From: an uncultured Actinomycetota bacterium
GTDB taxonomy: Bacteria; Actinomycetota; UBA4738; HRBIN12
Assembly: GCA_963762745.1 (NCBI GenBank)
Contig: CAVXMB010000005.1
Coordinates: 72,283 to 136,282, forward strand
Direction of reading: 5' to 3'
DNA: 64,000 bases
Shown piece by piece: positions 5,340 to 45,142 of the stretch (position 1 is the first letter of the stretch; each line of letters opens with the position of its first letter). Below the pieces are notes generated by a model that saw only the letters and a program-made list of their open reading frames with translations, was not told the origin of the DNA and did not search any database. Both the position numbers and the translations under genes were made by a program.

Positions 5340-7414
5340 TGGCCGCGACCCCTCCGATCTCCCGGCCGGCTCGCTGGCCGTGGGTCGTCATCGCCCTCGG
5401 CGCCGCGTTCGCGTCCCTCGGGCTGGTGTTCACGTCCATGAACGGCGACCCGCTCATCAGCGAAGCGACCAACTTCCTCGCGTTCATGGGGATGGGCGTG
5501 GTCGGAGCCCTCAGCCTCAGCCGTGCGCCGGGCAACCGGATCGGCGCCCTGATGCTCTGGGTGGCGGTCACCGTCGGGGTCGCCTTCGCGACCGCCGAAT
5601 GGTCGACCTACCTCTTCGACCATGGAGATCGGACCGCCGCGGGTTGGGTGGGCTGGCCGGGGAATACGCTATGGGCACTCAGCCTCTTCCCGCTGCTGGT
5701 GTTGCTGCCGCTCTGGTTCCCCGACGGGAAGCTCTTGTCGCCTCGTTGGCGATCCGTGTCCTGGGTCGGGATCGCGCTGTCCGTCGCCGCCTTCCTCACG
5801 ATCGGGTTCGCGTCGCCCACGCAGCCGGTGTCCGTCGACGCCGTGGGCAACGACATCGAGATCGCCAACCCGCTCCACGTGCCGGCGCTGGGAGCGATCG
5901 ACTGGCTCGCATGGGCGTTGTGGCCAGCGCTCCTCGCGCTCTTCGTTCTCGCGATCTCCTCGATGTTCATCCGGTTCCGCCGATCGACCGGGGTGGAGCG
6001 GCAGCAGCTCAAGTGGTTCGCGTTCGCGGCCACCCTCCTCGCCGGCTACTTCATCGTGAGTGCGATCCTCGAAGCCGTCGGCGTCTCCGAAGGGAGCATC
6101 GGGCAGATCGTTTCCGGGCTGGTGTTCGCGGGGATCCCGGTCGCGGTGGGGATCGCGATCCTGCAGTACCGGCTCTGGGACCTCGACATCGTCGTGAAGA
6201 AGGCGGTGGTGGCGGGGACCGTGGTCGTCCTCGCACTCCTCGTGTACGCGGGCGCCGTCGCACTGATCGGCACGCTGACCGTCGACGAGAACCGTCCCGC
6301 GCTCCTGTTCGGCGTCGCGCTCGCGCTCGGGATCGCCTTCCGGCCCGTGATGCGCATCGCGCGTCGCGTCGCCGATCGGCTCGCATACGGCAAGCGCGCG
6401 ACGCCCTATGAGGTGCTGACGGAGTTCTCGGAGCGGATGGGCACGTCCTACGCCACCGAGGACGTGCTCCCACGGATGGCGCAGGTCCTGGGAGAGGGGA
6501 CGGGAGCGGACGTCGCGCGGATCTGGCTGCGGGTCGGCAACGAGTACCGACCCGCCGCGGCCTGGCCCCTCGACGCTCCGTCGGTGACGCCCATCAGGGC
6601 CACATCGTCCGGATCCGAAGTTCCGGGCGAGACCGTGACGGAGGTGCGCGACCGCGGTGAGCTGCTCGGTGCGCTCTCCCTGCGGATGCCCGCGTCCGAC
6701 CCGATGAGCCCCTCCAAAGACAAGTTGGTGAGAGACCTCGCAGCCCAGGCGGGACTCGTGCTGCGGAACGTGCGGTTGGTCGAAGACGTCCGAGCCTCGC
6801 GTCAGCGGCTCGTGGCGGCGCAGGACGAGGAACGGCGGCGGCTGGAGCGCAACATCCACGACGGCGCGCAGCAACAGCTCGTCGCGCTCGCGGTCAAGGC
6901 GCGGCTCGCTCGGCAGCTGACCGAGCGCGAGCCCGCGAAGGCCGCGGAGATCCTCGGTCAGATCGAGGCCGAGACGCAGACGGCGCTCGAGGACCTGCGG
7001 GACCTCGCCCGAGGGATCTACCCGCCGCTGCTCGCGGATCGCGGTCTGGTGGCTGCGCTCGAAGCGCAATCGCGCAAGGCCCCGGTGCCGGTGAGCGTCC
7101 AGGCGGAGTCCGTCGGCCGTTACTCGGCCGACGTGGAGGCCACCGTCTACTTCTGCACCCTGGAGGCGCTCCAGAACGTCGCCAAGTACGCCGGGACGGA
7201 TCGCACCGTGATCCGTCTGTCGCAATCCAACGGCAGCCTCTCCTTCGAGGTGGTGGACGAAGGTCGAGGCTTCGACCCGAACGAGGTGGCCACCGGCTCC
7301 GGACTCCAGGGCATGGCCGACAGACTGGCCGCCGTGGGAGGCTCTCTCGAGATCCGATCGGCACCCGGCAGCGGCACCACGGTGGCGGGCCGAGTGCCGG
7401 TCACCGCTGCCTGA
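5339..7414 (+). CDS. sensor histidine kinase, NarL-partner type (polytopic membrane sensor + HisKA_3 + HATPase_c)
   Basis: Real part of track ORF 4622-7414, from ATG 5339 (TGATG overlap). MAATPPISRPARWPWVVIALGAAF..., LPLWFPDGKLLSPRWRS, H-box ERRRLERNIHDGAQQQLVAL, DEGRGF, GSGLQGMADRL...RSAPGSGT. Confidence 0.9.
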   Translation: MAATPPISRPARWPWVVIALGAAFASLGLVFTSMNGDPLISEATNFLAFMGMGVVGALSLSRAPGNRIGALMLWVAVTVGVAFATAEWSTYLFDHGDRTAAGWVGWPGNTLWALSLFPLLVLLPLWFPDGKLLSPRWRSVSWVGIALSVAAFLTIGFASPTQPVSVDAVGNDIEIANPLHVPALGAIDWLAWALWPALLALFVLAISSMFIRFRRSTGVERQQLKWFAFAATLLAGYFIVSAILEAVGVSEGSIGQIVSGLVFAGIPVAVGIAILQYRLWDLDIVVKKAVVAGTVVVLALLVYAGAVALIGTLTVDENRPALLFGVALALGIAFRPVMRIARRVADRLAYGKRATPYEVLTEFSERMGTSYATEDVLPRMAQVLGEGTGADVARIWLRVGNEYRPAAAWPLDAPSVTPIRATSSGSEVPGETVTEVRDRGELLGALSLRMPASDPMSPSKDKLVRDLAAQAGLVLRNVRLVEDVRASRQRLVAAQDEERRRLERNIHDGAQQQLVALAVKARLARQLTEREPAKAAEILGQIEAETQTALEDLRDLARGIYPPLLADRGLVAALEAQSRKAPVPVSVQAESVGRYSADVEATVYFCTLEALQNVAKYAGTDRTVIRLSQSNGSLSFEVVDEGRGFDPNEVATGSGLQGMADRLAAVGGSLEIRSAPGSGTTVAGRVPVTAA

Positions 7415-7438
7415 TCTCGGAAGGGAACGATCGAGGAG

Positions 7439-8203
7439 ATGGGATCCACCCACACACCGGACGCATCTCGGGGACGGCTGGCCTTCCGCCTCGTCGGCTG
7501 GATCTTCGGAGTGCTCACGATCGGATACTCATTGTTCCTCGTCTTGCTCTCGATCGTGTCGAGCGACCCCTCGAACACGATCCACCGTTTCCACTTCCTG
7601 GGAGGCCTTGCCGGCGGGGGACTGATCGGCGTGTTCTCGATCGTCCTGGTGATGCGACCGGGCTGGACGTCTGCCTTCCACGTCCTCGTCGCCCAGGCGA
7701 TCGCGTGGACGATCGGCGGGTTGATGGGTGGTGACTTCCTCACCGGCTTCTACGTCTCCGGTCCGATCGGGGTGATCGTCTTGCTGCTGCTGCATCCCGA
7801 CCCCCGGTCGCTCCTCCGGCTCCCCGGCCACCCGAGCATCGCGCTGATGATCTATGCGGTGATCGCGACGATGCCGGCCTGGATCTACGCGGTGACCGAG
7901 GCGGAGCTCCAGCACGGACCGGCCGCGGACCCGCACGTGCAGATGCATCACTGGTCGGGTGTCGCCGTTGCCGCGCTCTCGATCGCGGGAGCTGGGATCG
8001 CGACGTCTCTGCGTGGTCGTGGCTGGGAAGTCGCGGGCGCGGCGGCGTCGATCGCGGCAGTCCTCTTCGGCGTGGCCGGCCTCGTGTTCGCCGAATATGC
8101 GGGCGCGCCGCCGAGCGGGTGGTCGTGGCTCGCGGTCGCCGCCGGCATCGGGTTCTGGCTCCTCGTCCGAGTCGAAGCGGCGCGAGAGGCACCCGCCGGG
8201 TGA
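7439..8203 (+). CDS. polytopic membrane protein, unknown function (His-rich loops)
   Basis: 254 aa with ~8 hydrophobic segments. Loops HRFHFLGG, HPDPRSLLRLPGHPS and DPHVQMHHW. GAGGAG RBS, 24 nt after the kinase stop. High GC3. Confidence 0.8.
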   Translation: MGSTHTPDASRGRLAFRLVGWIFGVLTIGYSLFLVLLSIVSSDPSNTIHRFHFLGGLAGGGLIGVFSIVLVMRPGWTSAFHVLVAQAIAWTIGGLMGGDFLTGFYVSGPIGVIVLLLLHPDPRSLLRLPGHPSIALMIYAVIATMPAWIYAVTEAELQHGPAADPHVQMHHWSGVAVAALSIAGAGIATSLRGRGWEVAGAAASIAAVLFGVAGLVFAEYAGAPPSGWSWLAVAAGIGFWLLVRVEAAREAPAG

Positions 8204-14118: not shown

Positions 14119-14233
14119 TCGCGCATCATGGCGCCTGGAGTGGTGCACAGCCAATGGTGAGAACCCGCTGACCGTGGGTGATGCCACCACTCATACCGGC
14201 CGCGACCAGGGGCGTTGGTATCCTGCCTCGTCC

Positions 14234-14306
14234 GCCGGAGTAGCTCAGTGGCAGAGCAACCGCCTCGTAAGTGGTAGGTCATGGGTTCGAATCCCATCTC
14301 CGGCTC
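14234..14306 (+). tRNA. tRNA-Thr (anticodon CGT)
   Basis: Cloverleaf read by eye: acceptor GCCGGAG/CTCCGGC, D arm GCTC-AGTGGCA-GAGC, anticodon stem ACCGC/GTGGT with loop CTCGTAA, T arm ATGGG-TTCGAAT-CCCAT. Confidence 0.9.
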
Positions 14307-14357
14307 TTGCCGTTAGGAGTTGCCGAAGGAGTGAGCAGGTTGCGAGAATCGCGGCGG

Positions 14358-15064
14358 ATGAGGGCCCTCCGCGCGATCCCGCTTGCCGCAGCCCTCGTGA
14401 TGGTCCTCCCGGCGGGTGCCGCCGTCGCCCAGGTGTCCGTGGACCCCTCCGTCACGCCCGAGCTGAACACGGGTGGCTGGGTCCACGGCATGGCGATCCT
14501 GTTCGGTGCGCTCGGCCTCATCGTCATCTTGTTGCTGGTGGCCGGGTACGTGCGTTTCGCGCCGCGCTTCTCCACCGACGAGTCGACGCTCAAGGTCGTT
14601 CGTGCCGACCGGGTTCGTCCCGGGGAAGAACTCCCTCGTCGCACGGTCGACATCAAGGCTGCGGCTCCGATGGTCGTGGCACCCCCGCCACTGCCGCAGC
14701 CGACGGGTGTCGCGGCGGCTGCGCCGGCACCGGCAGCCGCTGCGCCGGCACCGGCAGCCGCTCGCAGCCGCTCCAGCCCGGCAGCGCAGCTCCCGCCACC
14801 CCAGCTCCTGCCGCCCCCGCGCCGGCCGAGTCCGGCGCAGAAGCGCCCGCCGAAGCGGACGCCGCGACCGAGGCTCCCGAAGCACCTGCCGCGGCTCCGG
14901 CGCCCGCCCCCGCCGAGCGGCACGAGGTCTCGCTCGACCAGGAGGTCTTCGACCAGACCCTGAAAGAGCTCCTCGAGAAGGGAACCGACAAGCGCGTGGC
15001 CGAGGGACAGGCTCGTCGGGCGGCGATGATCGCAGCGCGCAAGAAGGCGGCCGGCGAGGCCTAG
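14358..15064 (+). pseudogene. signal peptide + TM protein with Ala/Pro-rich linker and charged C-terminal helix; frame change after a 21-bp tandem repeat
   Basis: Frame 0 from ATG 14358: MRALRAIPLAAALVMVLPAGAAVA...GMAILFGALGLIVILLLVAGY...AAAAPAPAAAAPAPAAA, then Arg/Pro-rich junk. Frame 2 from ~14763: ...AAPATPAPAAPAPAESGAEAPAE...AERHEVSLDQEVFDQTLKELLEKGTDKRVAEGQARRAAMIAARKKAAGEA, stop 15064, with high GC3 and no internal start codon. Confidence 0.6.
14721..14762 (+). repeat. perfect 21-bp tandem duplication (GCGCCGGCACCGGCAGCCGCT x2) inside the Ala/Pro-rich coding region
   Basis: Read directly from the sequence. The next unit begins CGCAGCCGCT, one G short of the GCCGCTGCGC pattern, exactly where the reading frame changes. 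Confidence 0.85.
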
Positions 15065-15090
15065 CTTCGAGAACCGCGTAGCCTGTCGGC

Positions 15091-16167
15091 ATGGATGCCA
15101 CCCGGGTCGACTGGTCGATGGGCTCCCAGGCGGCACAACTCGCCGACTGGGATGCAGCCCTCGCGATCGGTCGCCGGGTCGCGGGTCCCGGCGTTCGCGT
15201 CCCGGCCGCAGAGCGCGCGAGGATGCGGGAGGACTTCGCGGAGTTCGTCTCGTTCTCCGAAGAACGCATCAAGGAGTTCACCTCGCTCGATCCCGGTGGG
15301 TTCCGTTCCCGTGCCTGGGTCATGGGCCGGGGCGACTGGATCCGCGCGAACCTCGGCGGGCTCCAGCGGCTGCTGGAGCCGCTCGCGGGCCGGATCCTCG
15401 CGAAGCAGTCCGGTCACGGCACGTTCCGGAGGAAGGCGCTGGGCGCCCAGGCCGGCGGACTCCTCGGCTACGTCTCGAGGAGGGTGCTGGGTCAATACGA
15501 CGCCTTCCTCCCGCCCGACGACGAGGGGTTGCTGTACTTCGTCGGACCCAACGTGGCGGAGGTCGAGCAGCGGTTCTCGCTTCCCGCTCGTGACTTCCGG
15601 CTGTGGATCGCGATCCACGAGGTGACGCATCGGGTGCAGTTCGGGGCCGCTCCGTGGCTCCGGAGCCACATCCGCGGTCAGGTCGACCGCTACCTCGGCA
15701 CGATCTCCCTCGAGTCGACGGACTTCGGGGCGCAGCTGCGACGAGCGATCGAGGAGGCGCGCGCCGGCGCGGACATCCGGGGCATGGGCGGGGTCTTCCT
15801 GCTGCTGAACGAGGAACAGCGCGAGATCGTGAAGCACGTCCAGGGCGTGATGTCGCTCCTCGAGGGTCACGCCTCATTCGTGATGAACGAGGTCGCGAAG
15901 GATCACGTCGCCGACCTGCCGAAGATGCGGACGGCCCTGGCAGAGCGCAGGCGGCGTGCGAGCGGCGCGGAGCGCGCGTTCCAGCGCGCGATCGGCTTCG
16001 ACAAGAAGATCGAGCAGTACGATGCGGGCGAGCGGTTCGTGCGAGAGGCGGTGTCGCGCTCCGGCATGGAAGGGTTCAACCGGGTGTGGCTCGCGCCCGA
16101 GAGCCTCCCGAGCGTCGAGGAGATCGCCGAACCCGACCGCTGGGTGGCGCGCGTCGCCGGGAGCTGA
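15091..16167 (+). CDS. zinc-dependent metalloprotease, DUF2342-type
   Basis: 358 aa. HExxH motif in LWIAIHEVTHRVQF. It occupies the position directly upstream of tilS-hpt-ftsH, as in other actinobacteria. Confidence 0.8.
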   Translation: MDATRVDWSMGSQAAQLADWDAALAIGRRVAGPGVRVPAAERARMREDFAEFVSFSEERIKEFTSLDPGGFRSRAWVMGRGDWIRANLGGLQRLLEPLAGRILAKQSGHGTFRRKALGAQAGGLLGYVSRRVLGQYDAFLPPDDEGLLYFVGPNVAEVEQRFSLPARDFRLWIAIHEVTHRVQFGAAPWLRSHIRGQVDRYLGTISLESTDFGAQLRRAIEEARAGADIRGMGGVFLLLNEEQREIVKHVQGVMSLLEGHASFVMNEVAKDHVADLPKMRTALAERRRRASGAERAFQRAIGFDKKIEQYDAGERFVREAVSRSGMEGFNRVWLAPESLPSVEEIAEPDRWVARVAGS

Positions 16168-29343: not shown

Positions 29344-29567
29344 GCGGAGCGGTGACCCGCGTCACGTTCCGCGGGTGATGCATCTCACCCATCGGCTGTT
29401 ATCCACGTCACATCTCGCCGCTACGTCGGTCGCTACCTTCGACGCGTTCGACGAAGACAGGCCGAGAGGTCTGTCGGAGGCGGATGGCCCGGAAGCGCAC
29501 GGCCGAGAGGCCACGTGCGCATGCCGGGGAAGCAGGGGGTGGCCCCGTCGCACCCGGGGCATCCGTT

Positions 29568-29640: not shown

Positions 29641-29928
29641 TCAGCGCTCGCGGACCCAGCGCTTGCCGGCGCCCCTACCACCGCCGCCGAGCGCGCCGAG
29701 ATCGACCAGGACGCCGATGATCACCAGCACGAGCCCCACGCCTTTCACGCCTCCGTACCGGTTCTCGGCCACGGCGTAGGCGAGCGTCGTCGTCGGGAGG
29801 ATGAAGAAGCCGATGAGCGGCCAGACCCAGGTGCCGAAGGCCGTCGACAGGTAGTCGGAGAACAGCCACAACACGACCATGATCGTGCGGGGCAGCAGGA
29901 GGACGAACAGGACGATCAGGCAGCCCAT
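29641..29928 (-). CDS. small membrane protein (95 aa, 3 TM), unknown function
   Basis: MGCLIVLFVLLLPRTIMVVLWLFSDYLSTAFGTWVWPLIGFFILPTTTLAYAVAENRYGGVKGVGLVLVIIGVLVDLGALGGGGRG. High GC3. 22 nt downstream of the receiver gene. Confidence 0.75.
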   Translation of the reverse strand: MGCLIVLFVLLLPRTIMVVLWLFSDYLSTAFGTWVWPLIGFFILPTTTLAYAVAENRYGGVKGVGLVLVIIGVLVDLGALGGGGRGAGKRWVRER

Positions 29929-29950
29929 CCGGGCACCCTATCCCTCCGGG

Positions 29951-30319
29951 TCAGCCGGCGCCGGCCGTCACCTCGTGGAGCACCATCAGGATGTCCTGGA
30001 GGCCCCGGCCTTTGGCGACGAACCCGGAGGCACCGGCGCCGCGCGCCGCGCGCTCCACGCCTTCGTCCGCGTGTGCCGTGAGGATCACGACCGGAAGATC
30101 CGGGGTCGACGAATGGATCCGCTGCATCGCCTCGATCCCGGAGATGTCGGGCATCGAGAGGTCCATCAGGACGACGTCCGGCTGGAGCTCCTTCGCGCCG
30201 ATGCAGGCGTCCTCGCCCCCGGAGGCCTCGCCCGCGACCTCGATGTCGCCGACCAGGCGGAGCGCGGACGCGAGCGCCTTCCGGAAGGCGGGATGGTCGT
30301 CGACAACGAGTACTCGCAC
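29951..30319 (-). CDS. single-domain response regulator (receiver only)
   Basis: VRVLVVDDHPAFRKAL...DVVLMDLSMPDISG...VVILTAHAD...GFVAKG. GTG 30319 is preceded by AGGAAG. The track ORF extends to 30433, so the start is uncertain. Confidence 0.8.
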   Translation of the reverse strand: MRVLVVDDHPAFRKALASALRLVGDIEVAGEASGGEDACIGAKELQPDVVLMDLSMPDISGIEAMQRIHSSTPDLPVVILTAHADEGVERAARGAGASGFVAKGRGLQDILMVLHEVTAGAG

Positions 30320-30792
30320 GATCTTCCTGCTCTCCTTCCAAAGCAGAGGCCCGGCCCGAGGCCCGACCTCGAAGCGGTGGGGAGACTCCCGTGGGGACAC
30401 GAGGAGCGGTTCGAAGATGCTGCCAGTCACCACCTCCCGTTACAACGGTCTTCCGGGTGGTCCTTCTGGTTCGAAAGGTCTATGCCTCGTCTCACCCGCC
30501 CCGCGGAAAGACCTGGATCGGAGTTTTCCTCAAGACCTCATCCCGGGAGCGACTTCTTCCGAAAGAGAAGTGTGAGAGTCGGATCCGACAACCGGGCGGG
30601 GCCTGGAGGACGGCCAGGAGGACGCAAGTGATGTGGCGTGACGTGCTGGCGTATCGGGGGCGCTGGGTATACTGCGTGCAGGAAGGCGCTGTGACCGGAA
30701 GGGAGCGGCGCCTCATGTCCCTCGAGGGTAGGACGGGGTCCGACGATCCTCGGGGCCGGACGGACGAGTCGCCGCCTGGAGGGATGTAGGGC

Positions 30793-33328: not shown

Positions 33329-33368
33329 GAAGCCCGGTCCCTCTCGAGAGACCGGGCTTCTCGGCATC
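33329..33368 (+). terminator. rho-independent-type terminator after clpC
   Basis: GAAGCCCGGTC-(CCTCTCGAGA)-GACCGGGCTTC followed by TCGGCATCTT, 47 nt after the clpC stop. Confidence 0.6.
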
Positions 33369-33386: not shown

Positions 33387-33623
33387 CTAGCGAAGCGGAC
33401 GCAAGAACAGATCCACGGCACGGTCGCCGATCAGGCGCCCGTGGTCCACCCCTTGCTCGACCGCGTGCCGGAAGTGGAACCCGACGAGGATCCGTGAGAG
33501 CGCGTTCTCATCCGCCGCCTGGGAGAAGCTCGTGAACGAGCGCGTCACCGATGCCGCGTCGTTGCACGTGCTCCCGGCCGGCAGCGTCAGGCTGCAGGTC
33601 TCGAAGCTGATCTCGTCGGTCCC
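33387..33623 (-). pseudogene. C-terminal remnant of a PAP2 / vanadium-haloperoxidase-like protein
   Basis: Own translation, no usable start: ...ISFETCSLTLPAGSTCNDAASVTRSFTSFSQAADENALSRILVGFHFRHAVEQGVDHGRLIGDRAVDLFLRPLR*. The F.SF..AA.E...SRI..G.HFR..V..G...G motif is typical of that family's C-terminus. The upstream part of the frame is occupied by the sigma-factor ORF in another frame. Confidence 0.4.
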
Positions 33624-33985
33624 AGGTCGAGCAAGAGCATGCGGACGTCGTGGCGGAGCTCGATCTCGTCGTACGGGTCGCGATCCCGTTCGACAGGGAT
33701 GAGTCGCCGCCCCGCCCGGCGTGCGGCGCGCGCCCGCATCCGGGAACCGTTCAACGCCACGCGGAAGAGGTAGGCCGTCGGATCATCGACCCGATCGATC
33801 CGATCCCATCGCTCCCAGAGCTTCAGGAAAGCGTCCTGCACCAGCTCGGCGGCGTCTGCCCGGTTCCCCGTCACGAAGTACACGGCCTTGAAGAGTGCTC
33901 GATGCTGCTCCGCGAAGAACGCCGCGAAGTCCATCGGGACCGAGGCCCGCTCAGGGAACCGCAGAACGTCTCCCTCTGCCTGCAT
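33587..33985 (-). pseudogene. ECF sigma factor truncated after region 2 (no region 4 HTH)
   Basis: 132 aa. Region 2: ADAAELVQDAFLKLWERWDRIDRVDDPTAYLFRVALN. It ends ...RMLLLDLGPTRSASRPAA*, where the region-4 motif (L..LP..QR...) should begin. No HTH is present in any frame downstream. Confidence 0.6.
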
Positions 33986-34058
33986 CGCTTCCTAGATGCC
34001 ACCGAGTGGCTGAACGCTTAGGACCAGTCCCAGGATGAACCTTCGGGCGCTGCTGGGC

Positions 34059-35150
34059 TCACCTCAAGGAATGGACGGGGAGGAACTCCTGCACCAGAAG
34101 GGTGTCGTCGTCGACCCAGACCGCGTATTCGCCGGTCGCCACCTGTCGGTCCTCGCCCGTGGCGAGGTCGAACACATGGATGTAGGACTCACCGTGCTGA
34201 GAGACGATGAACGAGATCCGGCTTCCGTCGGGAGACCAGGCGGTGTCCGACGCGTTGTCCACGTCGAGGCTCAGCAGCTGCTCCTTCCGCGAGCCGTCGC
34301 CGTCCATGACCCATAACGAATGCCTCGCCTGGCCGCTTCCCATCCCGAAGCGGGCCGTGATGAACGCGATCCGCCCGGACTGCCCGTCCCAGGCGCCCTC
34401 CAAAGCGTGACGTTGATCCCGCCCGCCGGCAAGCACGCTGACGCGACCGGACTCGACCGTCACCGATCGCACCTCGACGCTCGTCGTGGTCGTCGGCAAC
34501 TCCGACGACGGGTCGTCGATCTCGGTCCAGGCCCAATACACGATCCGCGAGCCATCGGGGGACCACCTCGGGTTCCAAGGGTCCTTGGGTTCGGTGATGA
34601 CCTTGTGGGGCTTCCCGCCCTCGACGTCGATCACGAAGAGATCTCGCGAATCACCTGCACCGAATCCGACGTAGACGATCCGCGCGCCGTCCGGGGACCA
34701 GGTGGGATCGATGGCCTCGAAGGGATCATGGGTCAGTTGGCGAAGCTCGGTTCCGTCCATATCCATGATCCACACCTGGCTCCGCCCGCTCGTATCCGTC
34801 GTGAACGCGATCCTCGATCCATCCGGCGAGATGTCGTAGAGCCAACTACCTCGAGGCAGCGTGTGCACACTCGTCACTTCGCCGGTGGCTACGTCGATCA
34901 CGTACTCGCGCGGATCTCGCTCGGACCCCTCGACCGCTGTTCGGTCGTGGTCGGCCGACGGCACGCTGCCCGCAGCCACGACGATCGCCACGGCTGCGAC
35001 CACCGCTACCGCTACTCCTCCGGAGATCGTGATCGCGGCCCTGCGTCGCGCCCGGGCGATCGTTCGCTCCGGTGCAGGTGCGAACGTCGGCGCGTCCCAG
35101 GCCGCCTCGAACAGCCGTCGGCGTACGTCCTCGTGTGTGTCTTCAGGCAT
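34059..35150 (-). CDS. anti-sigma-like membrane protein with extracytoplasmic TolB-like (PD40/WD40) beta-propeller
   Basis: 363 aa. Short cytoplasmic N-terminus, TM ITISGGVAVAVVAAVAIVVAAG. Repeated ISPDGSRIAF / WSPDGARIVY / WSPDGSRIVY / WSPDGSRISF blades. Its start overlaps the sigma-factor stop by 8 nt. Confidence 0.8.
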   Translation of the reverse strand: MPEDTHEDVRRRLFEAAWDAPTFAPAPERTIARARRRAAITISGGVAVAVVAAVAIVVAAGSVPSADHDRTAVEGSERDPREYVIDVATGEVTSVHTLPRGSWLYDISPDGSRIAFTTDTSGRSQVWIMDMDGTELRQLTHDPFEAIDPTWSPDGARIVYVGFGAGDSRDLFVIDVEGGKPHKVITEPKDPWNPRWSPDGSRIVYWAWTEIDDPSSELPTTTTSVEVRSVTVESGRVSVLAGGRDQRHALEGAWDGQSGRIAFITARFGMGSGQARHSLWVMDGDGSRKEQLLSLDVDNASDTAWSPDGSRISFIVSQHGESYIHVFDLATGEDRQVATGEYAVWVDDDTLLVQEFLPVHSLR

Positions 35151-35625
35151 CGGTGTACCTCTGGATGTCGGCTCGGAGGGCCTGCACGCCCCGGGTCACG
35201 AGCGAGCGAACGGTGCCGTTCCGGCACCGAAGGATCTGGGCGATGGCGTCCTCGGTGAGGTCTTCGTAGAAGCGCAGGACGATAGCGGCTCGTTGTCGCT
35301 GCGGGAGCCGTGCCAGAGCCGCCATCGTCGCCTCGCGCTCGACGAGATGCTGCTCGTGTCCCGCGGCGACCGTCGCGGGTCTCGTTCGCTCGAAGAAGGC
35401 GCGCTCCACCGCGCGACGACGGAAGTGGTTCTTTGAAAGATTCACGACCGCTCGACGGAGGTAGGCGTCGAACGCTCCGCCTTCTCGGAGGTGGGCGAGG
35501 CGACCGCTCACCCGGACGAACGCATCCTGCGTGATGTCTTCGGCCACCGATCGATCACCGGTGAGCAGGTACGCGAGCCGGATCGCTCCCGGCGCGCTGC
35601 GCTCGTAGAGATCGGCGAGGCTCAT
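35143..35625 (-). CDS. ECF-type RNA polymerase sigma factor
   Basis: Met at 35625 within track ORF 35143-35943 (alternative start 35703). Region 2: EDITQDAFVRVSGRL...AYLRRAVVNL. Region 4: LARLPQRQRAAIVLRFYEDLTEDAIAQILRCRNGTVRSLVTRGVQALR. Confidence 0.85.
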   Translation of the reverse strand: MSLADLYERSAPGAIRLAYLLTGDRSVAEDITQDAFVRVSGRLAHLREGGAFDAYLRRAVVNLSKNHFRRRAVERAFFERTRPATVAAGHEQHLVEREATMAALARLPQRQRAAIVLRFYEDLTEDAIAQILRCRNGTVRSLVTRGVQALRADIQRYTDA

Positions 35626-35792
35626 CCTCGCTTCGACCGCCACCTCCGGTTGTGCCACGCCGCTCTCCTGGGCCACACCATCAGGGACACCTGAGCGGGC
35701 CATCCCGCTGCATCGCTTTCCGGAACCGTACGCGAAGGAAAGTCGATGCGGGTCCGGATCGACGGTGCGGTCGACCGGACCCGCCTCGACGT

Positions 35793-36113
35793 CTAGCCGT
35801 TGTCCCGATCGCCGGCCGAGGCCTGGAACCCTGCCATGGCGTCCAGCTTCGCCTGGTCCCACGGTGCGATACCCGGTCCGTCCAACGCGGCGGTCTCGGC
35901 CTGCTGCCTGCCGGCCATCGCGTCGAGCTTCTGCTGGTCCCACGGGGCGATCCCGACGACGTGCTCGCGGGTGGTCACCTCATCCGTGGCGAACGTCCGC
36001 GTGATGATGCTGCCTGCGGCGGCCCCGATGACGAGGGCGAGGACGACTGCCACCACGTACGACGCGAGATGCCTTGCCGGTGTTGCGAGGGTCTGTGCCT
36101 TGGCGCTCATCCC
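35793..36113 (-). CDS. small membrane-anchored protein with duplicated GIAPWDQxKLDAMAG motif
   Basis: Met at 36113 within track ORF 35793-36161. MSAKAQTLATPARHLASYVVAVVLALVIGAAAGS... then VVGIAPWDQQKLDAMAGRQQ...GPGIAPWDQAKLDAMAGFQ. High GC3. Confidence 0.65.
   Translation of the reverse strand, partial: GMSAKAQTLATPARHLASYVVAVVLALVIGAAAGSIITRTFATDEVTTREHVVGIAPWDQQKLDAMAGRQQAETAALDGPGIAPWDQAKLDAMAGFQASAGDRDNG
35829..35954 (-). repeat. two ~45-bp imperfect direct repeats (35829-35873 and 35909-35954) encoding the duplicated peptide motif
   Basis: Plus-strand copies: CCCTGCCATGGCGTCCAGCTTCGCCTGGTCCCACGGTGCGATACC and TGCCGGCCATCGCGTCGAGCTTCTGCTGGTCCCACGGGGCGATCCC. Confidence 0.8.
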
Positions 36114-36226
36114 GTACCTCCTCGGTCTCACGACGCTCTCTTTTCGCGTCGACGCCATCAAGACACGCGGGGGCGAAGTTCCGCTGCGTCAGATGACCGA
36201 TGTGGGTGTGACGTTCATCACAGCCG

Positions 36227-37195
36227 TCAGGCGACGTCGACCCAGAGATTCCCCGTCTCCTCGTCGAACGCCAGGCCGCGGATCTCCGCACCGAACAGGA
36301 TCTCGGTGACCTTGCGAGTGTCTTCGTCCACACGGCGGATCACGCCGTCCTCGTCGCCGACCCAGATCGCGCCGTCACCGACCGCGAGTCCAACCGGCGT
36401 CGGCCCGACCTGCACCACCCCGGTGGGCTCCTTCGTCGAGGGGTCGATTCGAGTGATCGTTCCCTGGGTCCGTGAGAGCACCCAGATCGCCGAGTCCCCG
36501 ACCACGACGCCGTCACCTCCGTTCACCGCGACCCGCGCCCGCCGACGGATCGAGGCGGGGTCGTACTCCGACAGCGTCTCCCCGACGACATCGATCGTCC
36601 AGACCGAGCCATGTCCGAAGGCGAGCGCGTCGATCGGGTCGAGGCCAGCTCGCGTCACCTCGCGGTCGGTACGTGGATCGAAGCGCATCAGCCGGCCGTC
36701 CCCCACGCCGACCCACACGAACCGCCCTCCGACGGCGACCTCCGCCGTCCAGGTCCCGTCGAACGAGATCGCGCGGCGCTGCTCGCCGGTCGCCGGGTTC
36801 ACCTCGATCAGGCCTCCGTCGAAGGCCACCCAGATCTTGTCCTCGCCTTCGACGACGTCGAACGAGAACGAGATCGGAGTCTCGAGGTTGATGCGGGTCC
36901 GCACCTCCGATCGCGCGGGATCCACGTGGTAGAGCGAGCGGAACCGGACGGTCCAGACCCCGCCCTGCCCGACCGCGATCGGGTGCGTCGCGGCGGGCGG
37001 CGCGATCGCCGGGCCTCCGTGTTGCTCCACAGGGATCGGGATCGATCGGACGATCGGCGGGTCCGCTTCGGGATCGACCTCCACGACGGCCTCGGCCGGA
37101 GTCTCGGGTTCAGGAGCCGCCGACGGGGCGGTCTCGTCGTCGCGTGTCGCCGCGAAAGCGACGGCCGCGATCAACAGCGAGGAGTGCCGAGCCAA
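36227..37195 (-). CDS. seven-bladed beta-propeller domain protein (secreted, or C-terminal part of the upstream cyclase)
   Basis: 322 aa from TTG 37195. Blade signature recurs: GGVWTV, DKIWVAF, RFVWVGV, HGSVWTI, DSAIWVL, DGAIWVG, GNLWVDV. The N-terminal LLIAAVAFAA is either a signal anchor or the second half of a TM helix begun in the cyclase frame. Confidence 0.8.
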   Translation of the reverse strand: MARHSSLLIAAVAFAATRDDETAPSAAPEPETPAEAVVEVDPEADPPIVRSIPIPVEQHGGPAIAPPAATHPIAVGQGGVWTVRFRSLYHVDPARSEVRTRINLETPISFSFDVVEGEDKIWVAFDGGLIEVNPATGEQRRAISFDGTWTAEVAVGGRFVWVGVGDGRLMRFDPRTDREVTRAGLDPIDALAFGHGSVWTIDVVGETLSEYDPASIRRRARVAVNGGDGVVVGDSAIWVLSRTQGTITRIDPSTKEPTGVVQVGPTPVGLAVGDGAIWVGDEDGVIRRVDEDTRKVTEILFGAEIRGLAFDEETGNLWVDVA

Positions 37196-37832
37196 CGGCG
37201 ATCAGTACCGATCGGCGCGGCCGCTCCCGGCGGGCGGACGTTTCGATCGATGCGCGACGTTCGGCCGCTTCCGCCGCCGGGAGCGGCCGCGCCCGCTGTT
37301 CGCCGTTCAGCCCGGTGACGGCGTACACCTGCCAGGTTCCCGGCACCCCTTTCAGCTCGTGTGCCGAGAAGTCCTCGAAACCGAACTCCGAGCCCGTCAC
37401 GAGCTCCTTCGTGGTGCTCGTGACCAAGATGTCGCCCGCGTCGGCCAGCGACATCACCCGCGCGCCGATCACTACCGCGATGCCGTGGGTCTTGCCGGCC
37501 TGATCCTCCGTCTGGCCCGTGTGGATGCCGGAGCGGATCTCGATGCCGAGGCTGCGAACCTCCTCGGCGAGCACTGCCGCACATCTGATCGCTCGATCCG
37601 GCTGGGGGAACGTGGCGAAGAAGCCGTCGCCGGCGTGGTCCTCCTCCTTGCCTCCGAAGCGCTTGAGAGTGGCCCGGACGAGCCGGTTGAACCGCGAGGA
37701 GAGCTCCCGATATCGGGCGTCGCCCATCTGCGCCGCGATGTGGGTCGACCCCACCACGTCGAGCATCAACACCGTGGCGATCCGCCGTTCCGGGCATGGC
37801 CGGAGTATCCGACAGCGCCAGGGGGCACTCAA
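37110..37832 (-). CDS. class III nucleotidyl-cyclase-like domain protein, non-canonical (GIAVxIGARV subgroup)
   Basis: 240 aa. ERRIATVLMLDVVGST...GGKEEDHAGDGFFATF...IRSGIHTGQ...HGIAVVIGARVMSLADAGDILVTS...LKGVPGTWQVYAV. The tail after RPRRSVLIAVGSALL is Arg-rich and overlaps the next ORF by 86 nt. Confidence 0.8.
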   Translation of the reverse strand: MSAPWRCRILRPCPERRIATVLMLDVVGSTHIAAQMGDARYRELSSRFNRLVRATLKRFGGKEEDHAGDGFFATFPQPDRAIRCAAVLAEEVRSLGIEIRSGIHTGQTEDQAGKTHGIAVVIGARVMSLADAGDILVTSTTKELVTGSEFGFEDFSAHELKGVPGTWQVYAVTGLNGEQRARPLPAAEAAERRASIETSARRERPRRSVLIAVGSALLAVDRGRRFRGDTRRRDRPVGGS

Positions 37833-37839
37833 CCTTCGG

Positions 37840-38595
37840 CTACAGGAGCGGGCGGAGCTCCTCGGGGACGAGATCGGCGAACGTCCAGGCCGTCCACAGG
37901 TCGGCGGCGGTGCTTGCCGGATCGCGGGAGACCCCTCGACGAGCGAAGTGCTCGCACACCCGAGCCACGTCGCGAGCGAGGAGCGATTCGGCGTGTCGGT
38001 TCTTCTTCGGATCGACGGCTTGTGGAAGGTCGATCACGCAGATCTCCCCCTCCCACACGAGGACGTTGAACGGCGACAGGTCGCCGTGGATCACGTCGTG
38101 GAAGAGCATGCGTTCGATCGACAGGAGGCATTGCTCGAGCAGCTCCTCGGCCTCCGCCTGATCTCGCTCCCGATACCGATGGAGCTGCGGCGCGGCCTCG
38201 TTCTCGTCGCCGATGTAGGACATCAGGATCGCCCGATCCGTGACCTCGATGGGTCGCGGCACCGGCGCTCCCGCCTCGGACAGGGCTTGCAGGGTTTCCC
38301 ATTCCCGGTTGACCCAGATGCCGCCCTGCACCTCGCGACCGAATTTCGTGCGCTTGTCGAGGGCGACGCGGATCCGACGCTCCTTGATGAACTCGCCATC
38401 GCGGTAGATGGACTCGTCGCGGAAGTCTCGCCGGTCGAGGGGGTGATAGATCTTCAGCGCCGCCAGCTCTTCGCCGGTCGTGCGCGGGTTGGCACGGCAG
38501 AGGTGGACACTCGCCTCCTTGCCGCTCTTGATGGGTCGGATGACCCGTTCGATGAGCCCTTCGTCGAGGAAGTGCTCGATGACTTCGTCTCGCAA
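37840..38595 (-). CDS. RIO-family atypical serine protein kinase
   Basis: 251 aa, TTG start preceded by GAAGGAGC. IKSGKEASVH (ATP-binding Lys), HGDLSPFNVLV (catalytic loop), VIDLPQAV (metal-binding Asp). Confidence 0.85.
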   Translation of the reverse strand: MRDEVIEHFLDEGLIERVIRPIKSGKEASVHLCRANPRTTGEELAALKIYHPLDRRDFRDESIYRDGEFIKERRIRVALDKRTKFGREVQGGIWVNREWETLQALSEAGAPVPRPIEVTDRAILMSYIGDENEAAPQLHRYRERDQAEAEELLEQCLLSIERMLFHDVIHGDLSPFNVLVWEGEICVIDLPQAVDPKKNRHAESLLARDVARVCEHFARRGVSRDPASTAADLWTAWTFADLVPEELRPLL

Positions 38596-38791
38596 GGCGG
38601 TTGCTCCTTCGCTCGTACGGATGCGGACATGCGGGAACGCCGCGTCCTTCGGGAGCTACCGCGAGAGAGCCGAACGGCTCAGCGGGAGACGGAGGGGCGC
38701 AACGCGCGAACGGTGACCGAGCTCGCAGTCATCATCCATCCCTCCTTCATCGTCGACGCGACCGTCGCGCCGAACGGACCGAGTATACGTG

Positions 38792-39151
38792 CTAGGGGGC
38801 GGCCAAGTCGTTCATCTCGGCCTCGTCGGGCGACAGCGGCGAGATCTTCTCGACGACCGCGACGGGGATGTGGGTGACCGCCCGGAAACCGTCACCATCG
38901 GGCAGGACCTCCTGCGCGACCGAGACGAAGCGCGGCCCGCGCTGCACGAGGAATCCCACGGTGTTCACCAGGTAGTCAGCGCGAGCGTCCTGCGGATCCG
39001 GCTCGTCGAAGTCGAACCAGGCGTCGCGCCAGATCACGAGGACGAGGGGGAACTCGGGCGGGGCGGCGAGGCTCTCGGCGGCTCCGATCTCCTGCGGAGC
39101 ATGATCTTGCTCCCACTCGGCGTCTCCGCCGCCGATCCGCACGACCTCCAC
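38792..39151 (-). CDS. hypothetical acidic protein (119 aa)
   Basis: GTG start with GGAGG 7 nt upstream. High GC3. I recognise no motif. Confidence 0.6.
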   Translation of the reverse strand: MEVVRIGGGDAEWEQDHAPQEIGAAESLAAPPEFPLVLVIWRDAWFDFDEPDPQDARADYLVNTVGFLVQRGPRFVSVAQEVLPDGDGFRAVTHIPVAVVEKISPLSPDEAEMNDLAAP

Positions 39152-45005: not shown

Positions 45006-45078
45006 GCCGGCGTGGCGCAGCTGGTAGCGCAAGCGATTTGTAATCGCTAGGTCGTCGGTTCGAGTCCGACCGCCGGCT
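45006..45078 (+). tRNA. tRNA-Thr (anticodon TGT)
   Basis: Acceptor GCCGGCG/CGCCGGC, D arm GCGC-AGCTGGTA-GCGC, anticodon stem AGCGA/TCGCT with loop TTTGTAA, T arm GTCGG-TTCGAGT-CCGAC. CCA is not encoded. Confidence 0.9.
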
Positions 45079-45142
45079 CCGAAGGCGCAGCGATCGCTCG
45101 ATGGCGTCAGGGCCTCAGCGAGCGAGATTTGGGCGCCCCCCC

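What the first reader, a model, noticed from the sequence alone, without database searches (positions are those of the whole stretch)
33387..39151. All-minus-strand accessory block between clpC and radA: RIO kinase, cyclase-like protein, beta-propeller, repeat protein, ECF sigma/anti-sigma
In Firmicutes clpC and radA are adjacent, and the downstream order yacL-ispD-ispF-rlmB is reproduced here. In this window they are separated by ~6 kb transcribed entirely in the opposite direction, bounded by the clpC terminator and the radA promoter region.

In transcription order the block contains:
- a hypothetical acidic protein;
- a RIO-type atypical kinase, 8 nt before a non-canonical class III cyclase-like protein;
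- a seven-bladed beta-propeller that overlaps the cyclase-like gene, or is fused to it;
- a small membrane protein with a duplicated novel motif;
- an ECF sigma factor overlapping a TolB-like anti-sigma;
- two gene remnants.

Two different extracytoplasmic beta-propellers are each wired to a different cytoplasmic output (cyclase-like domain, sigma factor), next to a eukaryote/archaea-type kinase. That looks like an envelope-sensing module that has not been described as a unit.
Basis: partly seen in the sequence, partly recalled or inferred. Interest (0 to 1): 0.65.

Follow-up and report, generated by a model that had tools for sequence, protein, structure and literature searches.

The report
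Conserved RIO kinase beside variable sensor genes
The block is not one inserted sensing module: a RIO kinase and a small acidic protein are fixed neighbours of radA in an uncultured soil actinobacterial lineage, and the genes behind them are separate membrane-sensor cassettes that come and go between close relatives.

Summary
The organism is a 65-71% G+C uncultured Actinomycetota MAG, not a Firmicute.

**What is fixed.** In 80 species-level relatives the RIO kinase sits between radA and clpC wherever the contig reaches far enough. The acidic protein usually accompanies it. In 9 loci only RIO (with or without the acidic protein) fills the interval.

**What varies.** The RIO-to-clpC interval ranges from 28 bp to 8.4 kb. 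It gains and loses independent cassettes:
- 0-3 pairs of an ECF sigma factor with a PD40-propeller membrane protein.
- In one subclade, a ~525-aa protein made of a cyclase domain, one transmembrane helix and a 7-bladed propeller.

**State of this window.**
- The "cyclase" and "propeller" ORFs are that one gene, broken by two +1 insertions.
- The "two remnants" are the scar of a single 2.3-kb deletion.
- Each cassette carries its own conserved promoter-like or operator-like sequence.

The "single undescribed unit" reading is therefore not supported.

**Unexpected extras.**
- A conserved upstream ORF and alternative-helix leader precede RIO in 86 of 90 loci.
- A unique CRP-type palindrome lies ahead of the sigma operon.
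- The cyclase domain has an invariant Lys/Asp swap at the substrate-specifying positions.

The parts
38792..39151 (-). Small acidic protein (119 aa) of unknown function. GTG start with an AGGAGG ribosome-binding site. Transcribed divergently from radA.
   Evidence: ORF; no family match; 539 homologues, all named 'hypothetical'; conserved core FPLVLVTWRDAWFDFDEPDP...GFRAVTHIP; next to RIO in many species; structure model pLDDT 63, no fold match.
38596..38791 (-). Conserved leader ahead of RIO. A TATACT -10-like hexamer follows the acidic gene's stop codon. SD1 is GAAGGAGGG at 38748-38740. The upstream ORF is 38735-38679 (MMTASSVTVRALRPSVSR). Block B is 38704-38691, hairpin GAGCC/GGCTC about 38681-38666, element E 38663-38652, block C 38647-38638, and SD2 plus the TTG start 38609-38593.
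   Evidence: an SD-like motif plus an upstream ORF of 13-26 codons in 86 of 90 loci; the minimum-free-energy fold pairs SD1 with CCCUCC in 63 of 81 leaders; alternative helices with 87-90% of cells paired; no Rfam match.
37840..38595 (-). RIO-type atypical kinase/ATPase (251 aa, bacterial RioB-like). TTG start with a GAAGGAG ribosome-binding site.
   Evidence: PF01163, 135 bits. PA4780-family model scores 175.6, below its cutoff of 350; aligns to Rio1 structures. K48, H170-G-D172-L-S-x-x-N177 and D189 are invariant; sits between radA and clpC in about 80 species-level MAGs.
37804..37832 (-). Promoter-like element of the cyclase-propeller gene: TTGAGT (37832-37827), a 17-nt spacer, GATACT (37809-37804), then 6 nt to the ATG at 37797. 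This arrangement implies a leaderless mRNA.
   Evidence: TTGAG-N17/19-GATACT-N6-(A/G)TG is conserved ahead of every copy examined, whatever gene lies upstream (RIO, a paralogue or a sigma gene). The spacer sequence varies but its length does not.
36227..37797 (-). One gene for a cyclase-homology domain, one transmembrane helix and a 7-bladed propeller. Here it is disrupted by +1 insertions at 37790/1 and about 37179. The listed ORFs 37110-37832 and 36227-37195 are its two pieces.
   Evidence: frameshifts; more than 864 homologues, the top 120 nearly all single polypeptides of about 525 aa; cyclase domain matches Rv1900c (1e-39, TM-score 0.88); pLDDT 86, transmembrane helix 195-216, propeller 237-526; catalytic-residue census.
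36207..36222 (.). Perfect CRP/FNR-type palindrome TGTGA-N6-TCACA, about 95 nt upstream of the small-membrane-protein ATG. A conserved block GCAGCGGAAC...CGTGTCTTGATGGCGTCGACG follows it.
   Evidence: conserved in all 10 loci that carry the small membrane gene, whatever lies upstream; the only exact match in the 64-kb window; in 91 loci it is found only at this position.
35793..36110 (-). Small single-pass membrane protein (105 aa) with two GIAPWDQxKLDAMAG repeats. Probably the first gene of the sigma operon.
   Evidence: GAGGAGG ribosome-binding site plus ATG at 36110; called as 105 aa in L003 and L004; found in 10 loci, ahead of the sigma/PD40 pair or alone after RIO.
35143..35703 (-). ECF sigma factor (186 aa).
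   Evidence: Sigma70_r2 3e-12 and r4_2 2e-13. TIGR02983 scores 130.2, below its cutoff of 141.55. Start taken.
34059..35150 (-). Putative anti-sigma factor: about 35 cytoplasmic residues, one transmembrane helix and an extracytoplasmic PD40 propeller. Overlaps the sigma gene by 8 nt.
   Evidence: PD40 4e-21; the TolB model scores 117.7, below its cutoff of 343; an anti-sigma model matches only weakly (E 0.0018); sigma/PD40 pairs occur in 55 of 91 loci.
33622..33985 (-). N-terminal fragment (about 121 codons, region 2 only) of a second ECF sigma factor.
   Evidence: collinear with L003 15141-15504, where the gene is 173 aa.
33387..33620 (-). C-terminal fragment of a vanadium-haloperoxidase-like (VCPO_2nd) gene. 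The deletion junction is at about 33621.
   Evidence: the window lacks L003 12831-15141; intact genes of 448-457 aa with PF22778 in L002, L004, L005 and L006.
33329..33362 (.). G+C-rich hairpin after clpC, probably a terminator that works in both directions.

Best explanation
The 5.8-kb block is a mosaic of four separately signalled units, not one module.

**1. Fixed backbone.** A small acidic protein and a RioB-type RIO kinase/ATPase are permanent neighbours of radA across this uncultured soil Actinomycetota lineage. RIO is preceded by a conserved leader holding a strong Shine-Dalgarno sequence and an upstream ORF of 15-23 codons. The end of that ORF (CGCCGCGUCCCUCC, encoding PRPS) can pair in two ways: with the ORF's own Shine-Dalgarno sequence, or with a downstream GGACGYGGCG block. 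A third element is complementary to RIO's own ribosome-binding site. I infer an attenuator that sets RIO expression according to how the upstream ORF is translated.

**2. Variable slot.** The stretch between RIO and clpC gains and loses single-pass transmembrane signalling cassettes by deletion, duplication and replacement.

**3. First cassette.** This is a receptor with an N-terminal cytoplasmic class III cyclase-homology domain, one transmembrane helix and an outside 7-bladed propeller. It has its own promoter and appears to be leaderless. By inference, ligand binding outside alters dimerisation of the cyclase domain and so cyclic-nucleotide output. In this window the gene carries two +1 insertions and is probably a pseudogene.

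**4. Second cassette.** This is an operon of the small membrane protein, an ECF sigma factor and a PD40-propeller membrane protein. A CRP-type palindrome precedes it. By inference, the PD40 protein holds the sigma factor until an envelope signal releases it.

**5. Third cassette.** A second sigma factor, its partner and a haloperoxidase-like gene have been reduced to a deletion scar.

**Shown versus inferred.** Gene identities, topology, the frameshifts, the deletion, the presence/absence pattern and the conservation of the motifs are shown. Promoter function, attenuation, cyclase activity and anti-sigma function are inferred.
For: - **Domains and structure:**
- **Backbone position of RIO:** searches cover 80 species-level MAGs. 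One search gives an interval of 28 bp to 8.4 kb in 74 loci, with 9 at 143 bp or less.
- **Independent gain and loss among strains with an identical ClpC protein:**. Soil metagenome contigs also join 33369 directly to 36224/6.
- **Census of the slot:** one search finds sigma/PD40 ORFs in 55 loci, the cyclase-propeller gene in 17, the small membrane protein in 10 and the haloperoxidase-like gene in 7.
- **One gene, two frameshifts:**. One search shows these are the only uncompensated window-specific indels found inside coding sequence across the ~23 kb of the window (20.9-46 kb) matched by one or more of seven relatives.
- **Separate signals:** (TTGAG-N17/19-GATACT-N6-ATG ahead of every cyclase-propeller copy; palindrome and conserved block ahead of the small membrane gene; RIO leader).
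- **Uniform base composition, no sign of foreign DNA:**
Against: - There is no transcript evidence. The three runs labelled RNA hold contigs of 32-62 kb and are probably DNA.
- No terminator was detected between RIO and the cyclase gene, so read-through transcription remains possible.
- Within its subclade the cyclase-propeller gene is always directly downstream of RIO, even at 52-58% propeller identity. That fits a functional link as well as simple vertical inheritance.
- The frameshifts could be long-read assembly errors. Related contigs from the same project, such as L003, are full of indels.
- Helix support for the leader rests mostly on conservation and one-sided changes, and I derived the helices from these same sequences.
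Confidence: 0.72

Rival explanations
1. RIO kinase, the cyclase-propeller receptor and the ECF sigma/anti-sigma pair form one integrated envelope-sensing module. For example, the propeller receptor would make a cyclic nucleotide, a CRP-type regulator would read it at the TGTGA-N6-TCACA box to drive the sigma operon, and RIO would modulate one of these proteins.
For: - All genes point the same way and no terminator was detected between them.
- RIO followed by the cyclase-propeller gene is conserved in about 20 loci, down to 52-58% propeller identity.
- A unique CRP-type palindrome lies directly between the cyclase-propeller gene and the sigma operon.
Against: - RIO occurs without either partner in most species, and 9 loci have RIO followed at once by clpC.
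- The palindrome and sigma cassette occur in loci that lack the adjacent cyclase: L014, L018, L019 and L023-L025.
- The cyclase occurs without any sigma factor in L008, L022, L026, L092 and L093.
- Sister strains delete one cassette and keep the others.
- Each cassette has its own promoter-like signal.
- The cyclase-propeller gene is frameshifted in this window.
Confidence: 0.12
2. The two frameshifts are assembly errors, so the organism carries an intact, working cyclase-propeller receptor. Everything else in the best explanation stays the same.
For: - Relatives come from long-read soil MAG assemblies (MFD records).
- L003 and L001 show many 1-nt indels and broken genes.
- The insertion at 37790/1 lengthens a run of G.
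- Related metagenome contigs lack that base (section 4, position 37791).
Against: - Every other compared gene in the window is intact. These two are the only uncompensated window-specific indels in coding sequence, and both fall in one 1.6-kb gene. That is roughly an 8% chance if errors were random.
- The site at 37179 is a substitution plus an insertion, not a simple homopolymer slip.
- The same gene is deleted or truncated in sister strains.
Confidence: 0.35
3. The block is a horizontally acquired genomic island inserted between clpC and radA.
For: - The gene content of the interval varies between close relatives.
Against: - G+C content and skew match the flanks.
- No tRNA gene, integrase or flanking repeat is present.
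- RIO and the acidic protein are present at this site in all relatives.
- Homologues of every part come from the same Actinomycetota lineage.
Confidence: 0.04

Closest known systems
RIO kinases: archaeal/eukaryotic Rio1 and the bacterial 'RioB' group (Pfam PF01163)
   Same: - The RIO domain is complete.
- The ATP-binding lysine, the HGDLSxxN catalytic loop and the metal-binding IDxPQ aspartate are all present.
   Different: - The in vivo role of bacterial RioB remains poorly characterised (PMC5815136).
- The protein scores below the cutoff of the PA4780-family model.
- Here it is a fixed neighbour of radA and carries a conserved upstream-ORF leader. I found no description of either feature.
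Mycobacterium tuberculosis Rv1900c (LipJ) cyclase-homology domain (PDB 1YBT/1YBU) and M. avium Ma1120
   Same: - Same fold: 1e-39 to Rv1900c, about 46% identity, TM-score 0.88.
- Both metal-binding aspartates and the transition-state arginine are invariant.
- A non-asparagine residue at the second transition-state position is tolerated in the active enzyme Ma1120, which has Ala164 there (PMC4215837).
   Different: - The substrate-specifying pair is swapped. Aspartate sits where Ma1120 has Lys101, and lysine sits where it has Asp157. This holds in 114-115 of 115 family members.
- The domain is N-terminal and is followed by a transmembrane helix and an outside propeller. It is not attached to a lipase domain.
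ECF sigma factors with co-translated single-pass anti-sigma factors
   Same: - Sigma regions 2 and 4 only.
- The downstream gene overlaps by 8 nt and encodes a short cytoplasmic segment, a transmembrane helix and an outside sensor domain.
   Different: - No recognised anti-sigma domain was detected in the partner.
- The sigma factor scores below the TIGR02983 cutoff.
- The outside domain is a PD40 propeller.
- A small repeat-bearing membrane protein and a CRP-type box precede the operon.
Leader-peptide (upstream-ORF) attenuators, such as those of erm or cat resistance genes and amino-acid operons
   Same: - A short translated leader lies inside mutually exclusive RNA helices.
- One element is complementary to the downstream gene's ribosome-binding site.
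- Some clades have a hairpin plus a U-rich tract after the upstream ORF.
   Different: - It controls a RIO kinase.
- The conserved peptide core is (P)(R/H)PS.
- It has no Rfam family.
- The mechanism is untested.
Actinobacterial clpC1-radA neighbourhood, e.g. M. tuberculosis lysS-lsr2-clpC1 ... radA-carD-ispD-ispF (from my own knowledge, not checked here)
   Same: - Same backbone order: folate genes, panC, coaX, lysS, clpC, then radA, carD, ispD, ispF and rlmB.
   Different: - A response regulator and a 95-aa protein replace lsr2.
- No disA is present.
- The interval holds RIO and the sensor cassettes.

Membership tests
RIO kinase family (PF01163) | RIO domain detected above the curated cutoff | tested here: met
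   135.4 bits against a cutoff of 22, covering residues 44-223.
RIO kinase family (PF01163) | Catalytic set: ATP-binding lysine, catalytic Asp/Asn loop, metal-binding aspartate | tested here: met
   K48 (ALKIY), H170-G-D172-L-S-x-x-N177 and I188-D189-x-P-Q are invariant in 12 relatives and align to the Rio1 structures.
PA4780-family RIO1-like kinase (NCBIfam NF041645, equivalog) | Score at or above the curated cutoff of 350 | tested here: not met
   175.6 bits.
RIO kinase family | ATPase/autophosphorylation activity, role in small-subunit maturation | not testable with these tools
   No biochemical or genetic data. PMC5815136 describes the role of RioB as poorly characterised.
Class III nucleotidyl cyclase (PF00211) | Cyclase-homology fold | tested here: met
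   26 bits against a cutoff of 21.9; 1e-39 to Rv1900c. TM-score 0.88 to 1YBU.
Class III nucleotidyl cyclase (PF00211) | Two metal-binding aspartates and the transition-state arginine | tested here: met
   D13, D57 and R113 are invariant in 115 family members.
Class III nucleotidyl cyclase (PF00211) | Canonical Lys/Asp (adenine) or Glu/Cys (guanine) specificity pair, and the transition-state asparagine | tested here: not met
   Asp53 sits at the lysine position, Lys102 at the aspartate position and Val109 at the asparagine position. Ma1120 is active with alanine at the asparagine position, so activity is not excluded.
Class III nucleotidyl cyclase (PF00211) | Makes cAMP or cGMP | not testable with these tools
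   Needs an enzyme assay.
LipJ bifunctional lipase/cyclase (NCBIfam NF058673) | Full-length match with the lipase domain, score at or above 800 | tested here: not met
   174 bits, matching only model positions 292-449 (the cyclase domain).
ECF (group 4) sigma factor | Sigma regions 2 and 4 present, regions 1 and 3 absent | tested here: met
   r2 3e-12 and r4_2 2e-13. The protein is 186 aa. TIGR02937 scores 73.1 against a cutoff of 42.9.
SigE-family sigma factor subfamily (TIGR02983) | Score at or above 141.55 | tested here: not met
   130.2 bits.
Membrane anti-sigma factor | Recognisable anti-sigma domain that binds the sigma factor | tested here: inconclusive
   Pfam finds no anti-sigma domain. 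Two NCBIfam models match only weakly (E 0.0011 and 0.0018). The assignment rests on the 8-nt overlap with the sigma gene and on topology.
TolB (TIGR02800) | Equivalog score at or above 343 | tested here: not met
   117.7 bits. The protein shares only the PD40 propeller repeats with TolB.
CRP/FNR-type operator | TGTGA-N6-TCACA palindrome ahead of a promoter | tested here: met
   an exact palindrome, unique in the window and conserved in position.
CRP/FNR-type operator | Bound by a cyclic-nucleotide-responsive regulator | not tested
   I looked for no regulator gene, and binding needs an experiment.
Leader-peptide attenuator | Conserved short ORF with its own ribosome-binding site upstream of the regulated gene | tested here: met
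   found in 86 of 90 loci. Length differences inside the ORF are in multiples of three bases.
Leader-peptide attenuator | Mutually exclusive helices supported by covariation | tested here: inconclusive
   Helix P1 has 90.5% of cells paired but no change on both sides. Helix P2 has 87.3% paired, with 5 pairs showing a few double changes. Slid controls give 30-52%, but I derived the helices from these same sequences.

The most novel reading that the evidence does not exclude
The conserved leader in front of RIO is a new attenuator that senses translation. Ribosome progress or stalling on the (P)RPS-encoding upstream ORF would switch the mRNA between two forms: one pairing block B with the ORF's Shine-Dalgarno sequence, the other pairing block B with block C. 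That switch would expose or hide RIO's own ribosome-binding site. Expression of the bacterial RioB protein would then follow ribosome status, which would tie bacterial RIO proteins to ribosome function as in archaea and eukaryotes. As a lesser addition, the Asp/Lys-swapped cyclase receptor would feed the neighbouring sigma operon through the CRP-type box.
Probability: 0.25. Interest if true: 0.65.

Novelty: new member of a known kind. Interest (0 to 1): 0.4.

Why it matters
- **Annotation.** The result removes a tempting over-reading. The clpC-radA interval in this lineage is a hot spot where ordinary one-component and ECF-type sensors turn over, not a new composite machine.
- **Bacterial RIO kinases.** Their role in cells remains poorly characterised. 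Here RIO is a fixed neighbour of housekeeping genes (radA, carD, clpC, lysS) in about 80 species and has a strongly conserved upstream-ORF leader. A link to translation can therefore be tested with reporter fusions.
- **Cyclase specificity.** A family of more than 800 receptor-type cyclase-homology proteins has an invariant Lys/Asp swap at the substrate-specifying positions. It is a natural test case for how class III cyclases choose their substrate.

Tried and rejected
1. **Exact look-up of the RIO protein.** It found nothing. ClpC worked instead.
2. **Fold of the acidic protein.** The model has pLDDT 63 and the best Foldseek E-value is 0.4, so there is no assignment.
3. **Rfam on the block and on the RIO leader.** Nothing relevant was found.
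4. **Transcript evidence.** The only "RNA" runs are metagenomic libraries holding contigs of 32-62 kb. Contigs do span the RIO/cyclase and acidic/RIO junctions, but they cannot be trusted as RNA. I treat this as inconclusive.
5. **Settling the frameshift at about 37179 with public runs.** Coverage there is close to zero.
6. **Consensus promoter and terminator scan.** It found no promoter and one weak terminator-like site inside the propeller gene. Its thresholds miss the 8-of-12 promoter later found by comparison.
7. **Reading the conserved GGAAC...CGTC block ahead of the small membrane gene as a standard ECF promoter.** The spacing (10-23 nt) does not fit, so I leave it as "conserved block".
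8. **The idea that CGCGGUAGCUCCCGAAGGACGCGGCG mimics helix 45 of 16S rRNA.** The likeness holds only in the nearest clade and not in other clades, so I dropped it.
9. **The Rv1900c structure paper (PMC549627).** It is not held. Residue roles were taken from the Ma1120 paper.
10. **Literature search for ECF groups with propeller anti-sigma factors.** It gave nothing specific.
11. **Horizontally acquired island.** Rejected on base composition and on the lack of mobility genes.

Full report
**1. What is in the sequence**

| Coordinates | Call |
|---|---|
| 38792-39151 | acidic 119-aa protein, no family match |
| 37840-38595 | RIO kinase, PF01163, 2e-39 |
| 37110-37832 | class III cyclase-like domain, PF00211 8e-6; LipJ C-terminal domain 4e-51 |
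| 36227-37195 | beta-propeller |
| 35793-36161 | small membrane protein with two GIAPWDQxKLDAMAG repeats |
| 35143-35943 | ECF sigma factor |
| 34059-35150 | PD40/TolB-like single-pass protein, overlapping the sigma gene by 8 nt |
| 33587-33985 | sigma fragment holding region 2 only |
| 33387-33548 | 53-aa fragment |

- A strong hairpin follows clpC.
- G+C is 0.64-0.73 throughout, with no step at the block's edges.
- The organism is therefore a high-G+C actinobacterium, not a Firmicute, and the block does not look foreign.

**2. Close relatives show a mosaic**

- The identical ClpC protein occurs on six metagenome contigs, L001-L006. Comparing them with the window by blastn shows that the clpC-radA interval differs between them in blocks.
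- L004 is the fullest. Reading from clpC towards radA, it holds:
  - a haloperoxidase-like gene (457 aa);
  - a 314-aa protein and a sigma factor (173 aa);
  - a 258-aa protein and a sigma factor (163 aa);
  - a PD40 protein and a sigma factor (186 aa);
  - the 105-aa membrane protein;
  - a single 527-aa cyclase-propeller protein;
  - RIO and the acidic protein.
- L001 lacks the cyclase-propeller gene. L002 and L005 lack window 34422-37037. L006 lacks 34055-36226.
- Against the 98%-identical L003, the window lacks 2.3 kb (L003 12831-15141). That deletion removes most of the haloperoxidase-like gene, the 314-aa gene and the C-terminal half of the 173-aa sigma factor.
- Soil and root metagenome contigs also hold a form that joins 33369 directly to 36224/6, with no sigma cassette at all.

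**3. Cyclase and propeller are one gene, broken here**

- A search with the L004 protein found more than 864 homologues. Nearly all of the top 120 are single polypeptides of about 525 aa that cover the whole query.
- Against L003, L004 and L006 the window has one extra base at about 37179, inside the transmembrane segment.
- A second extra G follows the conserved ATG CCC at 37790/1.
- The TTG at 37832, which made the ORF appear to start 8 nt after RIO, is part of a conserved TTGAGT hexamer.
- Across the roughly 23 kb of the window (20.9-46 kb) matched by one or more of seven relatives, these are the only uncompensated window-specific indels inside coding sequence.
- Sister strains have lost the same gene. 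I therefore favour a real pseudogene at roughly 60-65%. An assembly error is not excluded, because related long-read contigs such as L003 are full of indels.

**4. The intact protein**

- The AlphaFold model (pLDDT 86) shows three parts:
  - a cyclase-homology domain at residues 6-163;
  - a transmembrane helix at 195-216;
  - 28 strands arranged as seven four-stranded blades at 237-526, with the last blade closed by the first two strands.
- Foldseek places the N-terminal domain on Rv1900c (TM-score 0.88). It places the rest on seven-bladed WD40 and YVTN propellers.
- I scored the catalytic positions in 115 family members:
  - both metal-binding aspartates and the arginine are invariant;
  - the position of the substrate-specifying lysine (Lys101 in Ma1120) is always aspartate;
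  - the position of the substrate-specifying aspartate (Asp157) is lysine in 114 of 115;
  - the asparagine position is always valine.
- Ma1120 is active with alanine at the asparagine position (PMC4215837), so catalysis is possible. The substrate cannot be predicted.
- The cytoplasmic domain is much more conserved (column identity 0.81-0.95 per 25-residue block) than the propeller (0.53-0.82). This pattern fits a sensor domain that diversifies.

**5. Wider comparison: what is fixed and what varies**

- A scan of one genome per species with a RIO alignment returned 80 loci, nearly all labelled as uncultured Actinomycetota or Actinomycetes MAGs.
- I ran tblastn with the window's proteins against all loci. 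Wherever the contig allows, the order is carD and radA on one strand, then RIO on the other, and further on clpC converging on it.
- The acidic protein is detectable beside RIO in many loci. In L029, L031 and L034 it lies after RIO.
- The RIO-to-clpC interval runs from 28 bp to 8.4 kb in 74 loci.
- The cyclase-propeller gene is confined to the nearest subclade (RIO identity of about 80% or more), and some equally close species lack it. Only L088 has a distant cyclase hit after RIO.
- Sigma/PD40 pairs occur across the whole lineage in 0-3 copies. L085 has three.
- A census of ORFs in the slot gives sigma/PD40 in 55 loci, cyclase-propeller in 17, the small membrane protein in 10 and the haloperoxidase-like gene in 7.
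- Seen from the cyclase side, every context examined has the gene in the slot after RIO, sometimes as two tandem copies (L017, L094). This holds down to 55% identity.
- In summary:
  - RIO and the acidic protein are backbone.
  - The cyclase-propeller gene is a long-standing but dispensable resident of the slot in one subclade.
  - The sigma cassettes are the common currency of the slot.

**6. Separate regulatory signals (inferred from conservation)**

- **Cyclase-propeller gene.** Every copy is preceded by TTGAG, 17-19 variable bases, GATACT, six bases and then ATG or GTG. This holds whether RIO, a paralogue or a sigma gene lies upstream. It is the signature of a promoter driving a leaderless mRNA.
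- **Small membrane gene.** It is preceded, in all ten loci that carry it and whatever lies upstream, by a perfect TGTGA-N6-TCACA palindrome and a conserved 40-nt block. The palindrome is the only exact match in the window. Among 91 loci it occurs only at this position. This is the CRP/FNR operator consensus, which I know from the literature rather than from a test here.
- **RIO.** It has its own leader, described next.

**7. The RIO leader**

- The 196-nt spacer between the acidic gene and RIO is more conserved than most of the coding sequence around it.
- 86 of 90 loci have an SD-like motif (mostly GAAGGAGGGATG) followed after 5-8 nt by an ORF of 13-26 codons. That ORF ends shortly after a (P)(R/H)P(S/F) core.
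- Length differences inside the ORF are in multiples of three bases.
- The DNA encoding that core, CGCCGCGTCCCTCC, can pair in two ways:
  - with the Shine-Dalgarno sequence (9 bp, 90.5% of cells paired);
  - with a GGACGYGGCG block about 100 nt downstream (10 bp, 87.3% paired, five pairs with a few double changes).
- An element just upstream of that block (CGCGGTAGCTCC in the near clade) is complementary to RIO's ribosome-binding site and start region.
- The minimum-free-energy fold pairs the Shine-Dalgarno sequence with CCCUCC in 63 of 81 leaders.
- Some clades add a G+C-rich hairpin with a U-rich tract after the ORF.
- Rfam has nothing here.
- I read this as a leader-peptide attenuator. The evidence is conservation and pairing potential, not experiment.

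**8. RIO itself**

- RIO aligns to the Rio1 structures. It keeps the lysine, the HGDLSxxN loop and the IDxPQ aspartate.
- It scores below the cutoff of the PA4780-family model.
- The in vivo role of bacterial RioB is described as poorly characterised (PMC5815136).
- Its fixed place among housekeeping genes, together with the translation-type leader, points to a housekeeping role, perhaps related to the ribosome, rather than to envelope sensing. This is inference.

**9. Verdict**

- The interpretation as one undescribed envelope-sensing unit is not supported.
- The best-supported picture has two parts:
  - a conserved RIO locus;
  - behind it, a variable slot of independent transmembrane sensors, one of them inactivated here and another reduced to a deletion scar.
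- The parts are new members of known kinds.
- The RIO leader and the swapped-pair cyclase family are the items most worth following up.

Noticed in passing
window 38596-38791 (minus strand): The leader ahead of RIO is highly conserved. It holds a strong Shine-Dalgarno sequence, an upstream ORF of 18 codons (MMTASSVTVRALRPSVSR) and alternative helices. It is found in 86 of 90 related loci and has no Rfam match.
   Followed up: partly
window 36207-36222: A perfect CRP/FNR-type palindrome, TGTGACGTTCATCACA, lies between the propeller gene's stop codon and the small membrane gene. It is unique in the window and conserved in all loci that carry that gene.
   Followed up: partly
window 37804-37832 (minus strand); also L008, L017, L092-L094: A conserved TTGAG-N17/19-GATACT-N6-ATG lies ahead of every cyclase-propeller copy. 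This implies that each copy has its own promoter and a leaderless mRNA.
   Followed up: partly
L017:10792-12357 and 14213-15784; L094:4362-5942 and 6001-7581: Some relatives carry two cyclase-propeller paralogues in the slot. The cyclase domains are similar and the propellers diverged, which suggests duplication followed by sensor diversification.
   Followed up: no
L085:10946-15690: Three consecutive ECF sigma/PD40 pairs follow RIO in one species-level MAG.
   Followed up: no
L007:8294-8969: In one relative a 173-aa ECF sigma factor and a 53-aa ORF sit between RIO and the cyclase-propeller gene. Insertions therefore also occur at that junction.
   Followed up: no
window 29397-29412: A one-mismatch CRP-like site, TGTTATCCACGTCACA, lies between lysS and the conserved 95-aa membrane protein and response-regulator pair upstream of clpC. 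This is within chance expectation.
   Followed up: no
window 29641-30433 (minus strand): A response regulator (about 125 aa) and a 95-aa hydrophobic protein lie between lysS and clpC in all relatives. From memory, mycobacteria have lsr2 at this position.
   Followed up: no
cyclase-homology domain of the family (L004 protein residues 53, 102, 109; window about 37640, 37490, 37470): The substrate-specifying pair is swapped and invariant across 115 homologues: aspartate at the lysine position and lysine at the aspartate position. Valine replaces the transition-state asparagine.
   Followed up: partly
window 14234-14306 and 45006-45080: Two tRNA-Thr genes (anticodons CGT and TGT). No rRNA or other Rfam family was found in the window.
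   Followed up: no
L087 (2.2-kb contig labelled Gammaproteobacteria): A RIO gene 90% identical to the window's sits on a short contig binned as Gammaproteobacteria. This is probably a binning error.
   Followed up: no
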